A stretch of DNA of 64,000 bases from Escherichia coli (GTDB lineage: Bacteria > Pseudomonadota > Gammaproteobacteria > Enterobacterales > Enterobacteriaceae). The stretch lies in the NCBI RefSeq assembly GCF_036507355.1, contig NZ_AP027877.1; one strand, given 5' to 3'. Below, piece by piece: positions 17,227-17,447 of this stretch. The translations under genes were made by a program, and so were the position numbers. Each line of letters begins with the position of its first letter. Position 1 is the first letter of the stretch. The notes beneath the pieces were generated by a model. It was not told the origin of the DNA and did no database searches. It was given only the letters and a program-made list of their open reading frames with translations.

Positions 17227-17289
17227 TCAGTAAGACGTTTTGTGAGAAGGGCCGCGAAAGCGGCCCTTTAGATTATTGGTAAAGTGCGC

Positions 17290-17400
17290 GTTGTTCATGT
17301 CGGATGCGGCGTGAACGCCTTATCCGACCTACAAGATCGTGCAAATTCAATATATTGCAGGAAGTATGTAGGCCTGATAAGCGTAGCGCATCAGGCAGTT
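17290..17400. repeat. BIME (two REPs in opposite orientation) downstream of tktA
   Basis: GTTCATGTCGGATGCGGCGTGAACGCCTTATCCGACCTACAAG and inverted GTAGGCCTGATAAGCGTAGCGCATCAGGC; flanked by two copies of the hairpin AAGGGCCGCGAAAGCGGCCCTTT (17247-17269 and 17421-17443). Confidence 0.75.
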
Positions 17401-17420
17401 TTGCTTTTGCCATCACTCTC

Positions 17421-17447
17421 AAGGGCCGCGAAAGCGGCCCTTTTTTT
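17421..17447 (+). terminator. rho-independent terminator (GC hairpin plus T7), second copy of the tktA-distal hairpin
   Basis: AAGGGCCGCGAAAGCGGCCCTTTTTTT; the stop codon of the convergent SPFH gene overlaps the T-run. Confidence 0.65.

What the first reader, a model, noticed from the sequence alone, without database searches (positions are those of the whole stretch)
17247..17447. Terminator hairpin duplicated on both sides of a BIME downstream of tktA
The 23-bp hairpin AAGGGCCGCGAAAGCGGCCCTTT occurs twice (17247-17269 and 17421-17443) flanking a two-REP BIME. Only the second copy keeps the T-run. This looks like the footprint of a REP/BIME insertion that duplicated the host terminator, and the second copy also terminates the convergent SPFH gene.
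Basis: seen in the sequence. Interest (0 to 1): 0.3.

Follow-up and report, generated by a model that had tools for sequence, protein, structure and literature searches.

The report
Terminator hairpin duplicated by BIME-1 insertion
A 152-bp bacterial repeat (BIME-1) sits just after the transketolase gene between two copies of that gene's terminator hairpin. The same hairpin-repeat-hairpin footprint at other sites, with repeat-free genomes carrying one hairpin, hints at how these abundant repeats insert.

Summary
AAGGGCCGCGAAAGCGGCCCTTT occurs exactly twice (17247-17269, 17421-17443). The interval between the copies is a complete BIME-1: a Y REP, an L linker with an IHF-like site, a Z1 REP and inverted outer motifs.

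The truly duplicated unit is the 22-nt hairpin, flush with the BIME-1 ends. The 23rd matching base is a C>T change in the BIME.

Polarity supports insertion plus duplication. Pseudocitrobacter has tktA, one identical hairpin and the SPFH gene, with no BIME. E. albertii, E. whittamii and E. coli share identical junctions.

The 174-bp unit now varies in copy number. About a quarter of SPFH-bearing E. coli have 0 units, most have 1, about 5% have 2, and an Escherichia sp. has 3.

The claim that the hairpin terminates the SPFH gene is not supported, because no T-run follows it on the minus strand.

The architecture is not unique. In a small sample, 6 of 12 BIME-1 loci carry locus-specific hairpin direct repeats of 19-22 nt (one of about 33). 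Three further loci have empty alleles with a single hairpin; one of these lies in this window at 31057-31092.

I found no description of this in the searchable literature.

The parts
15235..17226 (+). tktA (transketolase) coding sequence, stop TAA at 17224-17226
   Evidence: ORF. NCBIfam TIGR00232 scores 1098 bits over 663 aa. Annotated 'tkt: transketolase' in matching E. coli records.
17247..17268 (+). Proximal (left) copy of the 22-nt hairpin AAGGGCCGC-GAAA-GCGGCCCTT. No T-run follows it.
   Evidence: Fold dG -18.3. It is followed by TAGATTATT, so it is not called as a terminator.
17269..17420 (+). Complete BIME-1 (RIP/RIB-type) element, 152 bp. Left outer motif (T/C)AGATTATTGGTAAAG is at 17269-17284. 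Y REP palindrome is at 17299-17328 with CTAC at 17329-17332. L linker carries the IHF-like site ATTCAATATATTG at 17345-17357. GTAG is at 17368-17371. Z1 REP palindrome is at 17372-17396. Right outer motif CTTTTGCCATCACTCTC runs to 17420.
   Evidence: REP patterns and inverted arms I1/I2. Rfam ES036 hit at 17333-17375, 53.5 bits. All 151 bp align end to end at 89.5% with the fepA-entD BIME-1 of K-12-type genomes, and homology stops at the hairpin edges.
17421..17447 (+). Distal (right) copy of the 22-nt hairpin (17421-17442) plus T-run (T7 at 17441-17447). This is the predicted tktA intrinsic terminator.
   Evidence: The terminator-like site at 17421-17442 has 9 pairs, 7 of them GC.
17446..18354 (-). 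Convergent SPFH/prohibitin-family gene. Its stop codon overlaps the T-run.
   Evidence: ORF, translation, weak HflC/HflK-type NCBIfam hits. RefSeq calls it 'prohibitin family protein'.
31057..31092 (-). Related evidence in the same window: the unoccupied (empty) target of another BIME-1 site, mscS-fbaA. There is a single copy of TTGCTTTTGGCGAAAAAAAGACCCGCAGAGCGGGCC. In K-12-type genomes this sequence flanks a BIME-1 on both sides.
   Evidence: filled allele L108; about 9 of 30 sampled genomes are 167 bp shorter; window sequence.

Best explanation
The feature is an old insertion of one BIME-1 element into the tktA terminator.

Shown: the ancestral spacer was tktA stop, 20 nt, one hairpin, a T-run, then the SPFH stop codon. 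The BIME-1 (152 bp, with imperfect terminal inverted motifs) now lies between two direct copies of the whole 22-nt hairpin, flush with the element ends. The structure therefore looks like a target-site duplication whose length equals the hairpin.

Inferred mechanism: the two joins were made at the two feet of the extruded hairpin. The joins could have been on opposite strands of a cruciform, or between a nascent 3' end and a hairpin-protected displaced flap at a replication fork. Repair synthesis then copied the hairpin twice. The stagger is thus set by DNA structure, not by a fixed enzyme spacing. The REP-associated Y1 transposase (RAYT/TnpA_REP) cuts single strands on both sides of REP hairpins and is the obvious but untested candidate.

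Predicted consequences: the proximal hairpin has lost its U-tract and should terminate poorly. The tktA 3' UTR then carries hairpin plus BIME-1, and termination is restored at the distal hairpin plus U7. This would make the insertion nearly neutral.

Shown: the direct repeats now drive loss and gain of the 174-bp unit, giving 0, 1, 2 or 3 units among Escherichia genomes.
For: Anatomy: exact repeat. BIME-1 boundaries are defined by end-to-end homology with the fepA-entD copy, which lacks the hairpin.

Polarity: Pseudocitrobacter vendiensis has the identical 22-nt hairpin once and no BIME; a second Pseudocitrobacter genome shows the same by direct reading. E. albertii, E. whittamii and E. coli share the same junctions CCCTT|CAGATT and GTCTC|A(A/T)G(G/A)G.

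Allelic series: 45-bp spacers with one hairpin (L001, L090, L092), 217-219 bp (one unit), 393 bp (two units, L002 and L096) and 569 bp (three units, L011). Of 1830 SPFH-bearing E. coli genomes, 1364 have a filled allele. In an evenly spaced sample, 14 of 60 are empty and 3 of 60 have two units.

Repeated loss: the empty ST648 allele differs from this filled window by 8 of 1250 sites on the right flank, but from other empty alleles by 42-73.

Selection on the stem: a compensatory change keeps pairing in the E. whittamii right copy, AAGAGCCGC...GCGGCTCTT.

Generality: among 12 BIME-1 loci from metagenome contigs, same-locus left-versus-right flank scores are 16, 11, 22, 16, 16 and 18 at six loci. 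The cross-locus background is 6.3 +/- 1.5, maximum 14. Each repeat is a different GC hairpin of 19-22 nt abutting the element ends.

Empty alleles with a single hairpin were found at ysgA-metE (K-12), mscK-rsmS (O157:H7) and mscS-fbaA (this window).

Loop sequences have the same orientation in both copies at every locus, so the duplication is direct.

Ton-Hoang et al. 2012 (PMC3333891) show that TnpA_REP cleaves on both sides of iREP hairpins. They state that the in vivo mechanism is unknown.
Against: No enzyme is known to make hairpin-length staggered joins. IS200/IS605-type Y1 transposition leaves no target duplication.

Two full-length BIME-1 copies have no flanking repeat: fepA-entD and the L143 locus. 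Several truncated copies abut only one hairpin.

At mscS-fbaA the repeat is about 33-35 nt. The BIME right end is truncated there at a 10-nt microhomology with the target. This fits a replication or annealing route, or a secondary deletion, better than a clean staggered cut.

Termination and 3' UTR effects are predictions only.

The E. coli empty alleles could be partly retained ancestral alleles moved by recombination rather than new deletions.
Confidence: 0.72

Rival explanations
1. The filled state (hairpin-BIME-hairpin) is ancestral and did not arise by insertion. Every single-hairpin allele, including Pseudocitrobacter, is then a secondary deletion between the repeats. The repeats themselves would come from an unrelated tandem duplication of a hairpin+BIME unit followed by partial loss.
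For: Repeat-mediated loss clearly happens. Empty alleles are polyphyletic and mosaic in E. coli. Two- and three-unit arrays show that unit duplication occurs.
Against: BIME-1 is a dispersed repeat family whose other copies stop exactly at the hairpin edges. The outgroup genus has one hairpin. Three other loci have single-hairpin alleles in strongly diverged haplotypes; for example, the mscK-rsmS empty allele carries a different, orthologous hairpin. No BIME-hairpin-BIME remnant was seen at tktA.
Confidence: 0.07
2. Two-step origin. The hairpin first duplicated in tandem, for example by hairpin-flap ligation during lagging-strand synthesis. A BIME-1 later inserted between the two copies by ordinary duplication-free single-strand transposition.
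For: Hairpin-forming flaps are an established route to small tandem duplications (general knowledge, not tested here). RAYT-type insertion would then need no duplication step.
Against: No hairpin-hairpin allele without a BIME was seen. No spacer in the 19 loci I read was 22 bp longer than the empty one, and none of the resolvable rows had such a span. The model needs the same rare pair of events at six or more loci.
Confidence: 0.06
3. Inverted (fold-back) duplication. BIME-1 is a quasi-palindrome. After a one-sided insertion, intrastrand template switching extended the palindrome and copied the hairpin to the other side in inverted orientation. This would look direct because the hairpin is itself palindromic.
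For: the repeat finder reports a 37-nt inverted repeat at 17247-17283 / 17406-17442. The whole region folds as one long hairpin with z = -7.5.
Against: The asymmetric loops have the same orientation in both copies: GAAA/GAAA here, GTT/GTT at ysgA-metE, ACATTTAG at mscK-rsmS, AGA at mscS-fbaA. An inverted copy would carry TTTC, AAC and so on. The inverted-repeat extension is simply the BIME-1 terminal inverted motifs.
Confidence: 0.02
4. Fixed-length duplication plus selection. BIME-1 insertion always duplicates about 20 bp of any target. Only insertions that happen to duplicate a terminator hairpin are neutral enough to persist.
For: Repeat lengths cluster at 19-22 nt. Regenerating an intact terminator is an obvious selective filter.
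Against: Repeat edges coincide with the stem feet to within about 1 nt at five loci. Neutral insertions between a stop codon and its terminator should then show non-hairpin 20-nt repeats, yet fepA-entD shows none. One locus has a repeat of about 33 nt.
Confidence: 0.1
5. The two hairpins are independent terminators, one for tktA and one for the SPFH gene, made identical by convergence or gene conversion.
For: The genes are convergent. The copies differ by 2-3 nt in some lineages and are identical in others.
Against: Neither copy has a T-run on the minus strand. Genomes without the BIME have one hairpin only. The same pattern at other loci involves unrelated hairpin sequences.
Confidence: 0.02

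Closest known systems
BIME-1 (also called RIP or RIB elements) of E. coli: a Y REP, an L linker with an IHF site and a Z1 REP
   Same: The composition, order, L motif and outer motifs are the same. The element is 89.5% identical end to end to the fepA-entD copy. It lies at the 3' end of a transcription unit. It is present or absent among isolates, as summarised for BIME-1 in PMC1187871.
   Different: BIME-1 is described as occurring singly (PMC3333891). Here the unit, with its hairpin, forms 2-3 copy tandem arrays in some genomes. I found no description of flanking hairpin-length direct repeats.
REPIN/RAYT system and IS200/IS605-type single-strand transposition
   Same: Two inverted REP hairpins carry GTAG/CTAC tags. 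RAYT cleaves at CC|T on both sides of the hairpin in vitro (PMC3333891). The hairpin here ends in GCCC|TT on both strands.
   Different: This family makes no target duplication (PMC2817692). A 19-22 nt direct repeat is unexpected. RAYT involvement is untested.
MITEs with terminal inverted repeats and target-site duplications
   Same: The element is non-coding and has imperfect terminal inverted motifs (12 of 16 positions). It is flanked by direct repeats, empty sites exist, and it folds into a long stem-loop.
   Different: MITE duplications are short and fixed in length, being set by a DDE transposase. Here the repeat equals a whole locus-specific hairpin of 19-22 nt, or about 33 nt at one locus. 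A 2011 review states that REPs lack MITE signatures (PMC3184786).
CRISPR repeat duplication by Cas1-Cas2 during spacer integration (an analogy in mechanism only; from general knowledge)
   Same: A palindromic target is attacked at both borders on opposite strands and ends up duplicated on both sides of the insert. IHF takes part in E. coli spacer integration, and BIME-1 carries an IHF-like site.
   Different: The insert is 152 bp rather than about 33 bp. The targets are unrelated terminator hairpins. No cas context was examined. This is not a membership claim.
Insertion sequences that target REPs (IS621/IS110 family, IS1397)
   Same: The same BIME is hit by IS621 in strain MS1685. An IS110-family element sits in another REP in this window.
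   Different: Those elements insert into REPs. Here the REP-containing element itself appears to have inserted at a non-REP hairpin.

Membership tests
BIME-1 (RIP/RIB) | One Y-type and one Z1-type REP in opposite orientation | tested here: met
   The Y pattern matches exactly at 17303-17324. The Z1 pattern matches exactly at 17372-17396. CTAC at 17329-17332 and GTAG at 17368-17371 were read.
BIME-1 (RIP/RIB) | Long L linker carrying an IHF consensus site | tested here: met
   ATTCAATATATTG at 17345-17357 matches WATCAANNNNTTR at 12 of 13 positions (my reading). Rfam ES036, a model of this linker, scores 53.5 bits. The exact L-motif pattern recovers other BIME-1 copies. IHF binding itself is not testable here.
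BIME-1 (RIP/RIB) | End-to-end homology with other family members, including outer motifs | tested here: met
   All 151 of 151 bp align at 89.5% to the fepA-entD copy in K-12-type genomes, and homology ends at the hairpins.
BIME-1 (RIP/RIB) | Occurs as a single unit, unlike the tandem BIME-2 | tested here: inconclusive
   There is one unit in this window. Two units occur in L002 and L096, and three in L011.
Rho-independent terminator | GC-rich stem-loop | tested here: met
   Both copies have a 9-bp stem with a GAAA loop, dG -18.3.
Rho-independent terminator | U-run immediately 3' of the stem on the transcribed strand | tested here: met
   This is met only for the distal copy on the + strand (T7).
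Rho-independent terminator, for the proximal copy and for the SPFH (minus) strand | U-run immediately 3' of the stem on the transcribed strand | tested here: not met
   The proximal copy is followed by TAGATTATT. The minus-strand reads are GAGAGTGATGG and CTCACAAAAC. No minus-strand site is found.
Rho-independent terminator | Transcripts actually end there | not testable with these tools
   This needs 3'-end mapping.
MITE / DDE-type transposon footprint | Terminal inverted repeats | tested here: met
   CAGATTATTGGCAAAG matches the reverse complement GAGACTGATGGCAAAG at 12 of 16 positions. The motifs are conserved across loci.
MITE / DDE-type transposon footprint | Short target duplication of fixed length (2-14 bp) | tested here: not met
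   The direct repeats are 19-22 nt, and about 33 nt at mscS-fbaA. They coincide with hairpin edges.
IS200/IS605-RAYT single-strand transposition | Insertion without target duplication | tested here: not met
   A 22-nt direct repeat flanks the element, and the empty sites carry one copy.
IS200/IS605-RAYT single-strand transposition | Mobilisation depends on the RAYT transposase | not testable with these tools
   This needs genetics or biochemistry.

The most novel reading that the evidence does not exclude
BIME-1 elements, and perhaps REP doublets generally, insert specifically at extruded hairpins such as intrinsic terminators. The process would join at the two feet of the hairpin and so duplicate the whole hairpin. 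This structure-sized target duplication is the missing footprint of REP/BIME transposition. It would also explain why these repeats accumulate harmlessly at gene 3' ends.
Probability: 0.45. Interest if true: 0.8.

Novelty: new variant of a known kind. Interest (0 to 1): 0.6.

Why it matters
REP and BIME repeats were described about 40 years ago and make up several percent of E. coli intergenic DNA. A 2026 preprint still says their in vivo insertion mechanism is not established. Reviews say they lack transposon-like signatures. A reproducible footprint would fill that gap. It consists of precise element ends, a direct repeat equal to a locus-specific hairpin, and matching empty sites at four loci.

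The footprint points to hairpins and terminators as targets. It predicts a structure-set stagger. It gives concrete substrates for testing RAYT. It also explains why insertions at 3' ends are tolerated, since the terminator is regenerated.

Locally, the tktA 3' UTR differs by 0 to about 520 nt of structured RNA among E. coli strains. That could alter tktA mRNA stability.

Tried and rejected
1. Inverted (fold-back) duplication was rejected because the loops have the same orientation in both copies.

2. The idea that the hairpin is part of the repeat family was rejected. The hairpin occurs only at this locus in the window. Other BIME-1 copies stop at its edge.

3. The katE-chbG alternative allele carries an unrelated hairpin. 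The K-12 psuK-fruA spacer is rearranged. Neither gives a clean empty site.

4. A viral-contig scan for the BIME-1 right end found nothing.

5. A BLAST of all fetched loci for further BIME-1 copies added no new loci.

6. Aligning the four empty target sites shows no shared sequence motif, but that alignment is not meaningful.

7. I looked for microhomology between BIME ends and target flanks by eye. It is present only at mscS-fbaA.

8. Literature searches for a prior description found none. The two most relevant old papers are not held: Bachellier et al. 1997 Genetics (PMC1207841) and Boccard & Prentki 1993 (PMC413762). Prior notice cannot be excluded.

9. Flank SNP matrices show heavy mosaicism. 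A clean tree of empty versus filled alleles was therefore not attempted.

Full report
**Observation.**

The 23-mer AAGGGCCGCGAAAGCGGCCCTTT occurs exactly twice in the window, at 17247-17269 and 17421-17443. There are no other matches within three mismatches, and none are expected in shuffles. Each copy folds into a 9-bp stem with a GAAA loop (dG -18.3). Only the second copy is followed by a T-run, and the consensus scan calls only that copy as a terminator in this spacer, on the + strand.

The upstream ORF is transketolase (TIGR00232, 1098 bits). The convergent ORF at 17446-18354 is an SPFH/prohibitin-family protein (annotation).

**What lies between the copies.**

The 151-152 bp between the hairpins is a complete BIME-1. 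It contains:
- a Y REP (17299-17328, CTAC at 17329-17332);
- an L linker with an IHF-like site (ATTCAATATATTG, 17345-17357);
- a Z1 REP (GTAG at 17368-17371, palindrome at 17372-17396);
- two outer motifs that are imperfect inverted repeats of each other.

The whole interval aligns end to end at 89.5% with the BIME-1 between fepA and entD in K-12-type genomes. The homology stops exactly at the hairpin edges. The hairpin is therefore not part of the repeat family.

In most relatives the base after the left hairpin is C, the first base of CAGATT. The true repeat is thus 22 nt, and the 23rd matching base in this window is a C>T change.

**Polarity.**

A search with the SPFH protein across one genome per species found the same tktA-SPFH synteny in Pseudocitrobacter. 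P. vendiensis and a second Pseudocitrobacter genome (the latter read directly) have one copy of the identical 22-nt hairpin and no BIME.

E. albertii, E. whittamii, a representative E. coli and Escherichia sp. MOD1-EC7003 all carry the BIME with the same junctions. Their right-hand hairpin copies are variably diverged. E. whittamii shows a compensatory stem change, which indicates selection for pairing.

The insertion with duplication is therefore old and shared within Escherichia. The single hairpin is the outgroup state.

**Population picture.**

Among 5,426 complete E. coli genomes, 1830 carry the SPFH gene here. The rest, including K-12, diverge immediately after the tktA stop codon and use a different terminator.

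Of the 1830 SPFH-bearing genomes:
- 1364 have a filled allele;
- in an evenly spaced sample of 60, 14 are empty (one hairpin, 44-45 bp spacer, at least three haplotypes);
- 3 of the 60 have two units and three hairpins (393 bp spacer);
- most of the rest have one unit, including a common variant with a 12-bp deletion inside the BIME.

MOD1-EC7003 has three units.

Flank SNP matrices are mosaic. The empty ST648 allele is 8 of 1250 sites from this filled window on the right flank, but 42-73 from other empty alleles. This fits repeated loss by recombination between the direct repeats. Retention of an old empty allele moved by recombination cannot be fully excluded.

**The SPFH claim.**

On the minus strand neither hairpin copy is followed by a T-run, and the scan reports no terminator there. 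The hairpin abuts the SPFH stop codon and may stabilise the 3' end. However, sequence does not support its being that gene's intrinsic terminator.

**Generality.**

A metagenome scan for the BIME-1 L motif returned 120 stretches, which collapse to 12 distinct BIME-1 loci.

At six of these loci, the left and right flanks of the same locus share a strong local match (scores 16, 11, 22, 16, 16, 18). The cross-locus background is 6.3 +/- 1.5, maximum 14. In each case the shared sequence is a different GC-rich hairpin of 19-22 nt lying flush against the BIME-1 ends, in direct orientation:

| Locus | Left copy | Right copy |
|---|---|---|
| psuK/fruA | GGGCAGAGATGTTTCTGCCC | GGGGCAGAGATGTCTCAGCCCC |
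| mscK-rsmS | GGGGCAACATTTAGTTGCCCC | GGGGACATTTAGCGACCCC |
| ysgA-metE | ACGGGTGGCGTTGCCACCCG | ACGGGTGGTGTTACCACCCG |
| katE-chbG | GGCGGCGCAATTGCGCCGCC | AGCGGCGCAGTTACGCCGCC |
| mscS-fbaA | see below | see below |
| tktA | AAGGGCCGC(G/A)AA(A/T)GCGGCCCTT | AAGGGCCGCGAAAGCGGCCCTT |

Three of these loci also have empty alleles with a single hairpin:
- ysgA-metE is empty in K-12 and in every sampled E. coli row that spanned the spacer, and filled in a related contig.
- mscK-rsmS is filled in K-12 and empty in O157:H7. The empty allele has a diverged orthologous hairpin plus a T-run.
- mscS-fbaA is filled in K-12 and empty in about 30% of genomes, including this very window at 31057-31092.

Exceptions:
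- fepA-entD and one other full-length copy have no flanking repeat.
- Four truncated copies abut at most one hairpin.
- At mscS-fbaA the repeat is about 33-35 nt. The BIME right end stops at a 10-nt microhomology with the target.

**Mechanism.**

Shown:
- precise element ends;
- direct repeats the size of the hairpin;
- empty sites;
- unit copy-number change.

Rejected:
- Inverted fold-back duplication, because loop orientation is the same in both copies.
- The hairpin as part of the element.
- Independent convergent terminators, because single-hairpin alleles exist.

Inferred: the insertion joins were made at the two feet of the extruded hairpin, so the stagger equals the hairpin, and gap or flap repair duplicated it. 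Two variants remain open. One is concerted attack on a cruciform. The other is a replication-coupled route in which single-stranded BIME DNA is joined to a nascent 3' end and a hairpin-protected displaced strand is retained. The microhomology case at mscS-fbaA leans toward the second variant.

RAYT/TnpA_REP cuts on both sides of REP hairpins at CC|T and performs strand transfer in vitro, but its in vivo role is unknown (PMC3333891). The hairpin here ends in GCCC|TT on both strands, which is suggestive only.

Thermodynamic folding of the transcript pairs the two hairpin copies with each other around the BIME. Co-transcriptional folding would favour the two local hairpins.

**Known or new.**

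BIME-1, its IHF site, its presence or absence among isolates, and IS621 targeting of REPs are all known. What I could not find in the searchable literature is that BIME-1 copies are flanked by hairpin-length direct repeats of the target. Reviews state that REPs lack MITE signatures and that the insertion mechanism is unresolved.

The two most relevant older papers are not held, so prior notice is possible.

I rate the finding a new variant of a known kind. As a single locus it is modest. As a recurrent footprint it is a useful lead on an old question. The sample of 12 loci is small, and a census is the obvious next step.

Noticed in passing
window 12786-14064: An IS621-like element is inserted inside a REP between speB (agmatinase, 11794-12714) and loiP. 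It encodes an IS110-family RNA-guided transposase ORF at 12978-13958 (NF033542, 256 bits). Its ends match the IS621 copy in locus L006.
   Followed up: partly
L006 (E. coli MS1685) 2870-4145: In this strain an annotated IS621 has inserted into the tktA BIME itself, just before the Z1 REP. The spacer is lengthened to 1499 bp and both hairpin copies are intact.
   Followed up: partly
window 31057-31092 (- strand): This is the unoccupied target of the mscS-fbaA BIME-1. One genome therefore carries a filled site (tktA) and an empty site about 14 kb apart. In K-12-type genomes this 33-35 nt sequence is duplicated around a BIME-1 whose right end is truncated at a 10-nt microhomology.
   Followed up: yes
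L003 (SE15) 1846-1850, and rows H94-H114: A common 12-bp deletion inside the tktA BIME (GAAGTATGTAGG) removes the GTAG tag of the Z1 REP. That tag is needed for RAYT recognition according to the literature. The deletion appears in roughly a fifth of the sampled rows.
   Followed up: no
window 17227 onward versus L005 (K-12 type): About two thirds of E. coli genomes, including K-12, lack the SPFH gene. The two haplotypes diverge immediately after the tktA stop codon. K-12 uses an unrelated terminator, AAAAGGTCGCTTCGGCGACCTTTTTT, and homology resumes upstream of cmtB.
   Followed up: partly
L193: This metagenome contig has a BIME-1 whose left flank is that of the mscK-rsmS site and whose right flank is that of the fepA-entD site. 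It is either an assembly chimera across the repeat or a real recombination between two BIME-1 copies about 125 kb apart.
   Followed up: no
window 17579-17697: There are 33-nt periodic direct repeats inside the SPFH gene (families D1 and D3). They correspond to repeated 11-residue AEAE(T/A)IR-type segments near the protein's C-terminus.
   Followed up: no
L095 (ETEC4075) 1789-1824: This empty allele has a 9-bp shorter left flank and a first-base change in the hairpin (CAGGGCC...), giving a 36-bp tktA-SPFH spacer.
   Followed up: no
window 17227-17455: In the minimum-free-energy fold of the transcript, the two hairpin copies pair with each other rather than locally. They enclose the whole BIME in one long stem (-99.8 kcal/mol, z = -7.5). 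If this structure forms, it would compete with the terminator hairpin.
   Followed up: no
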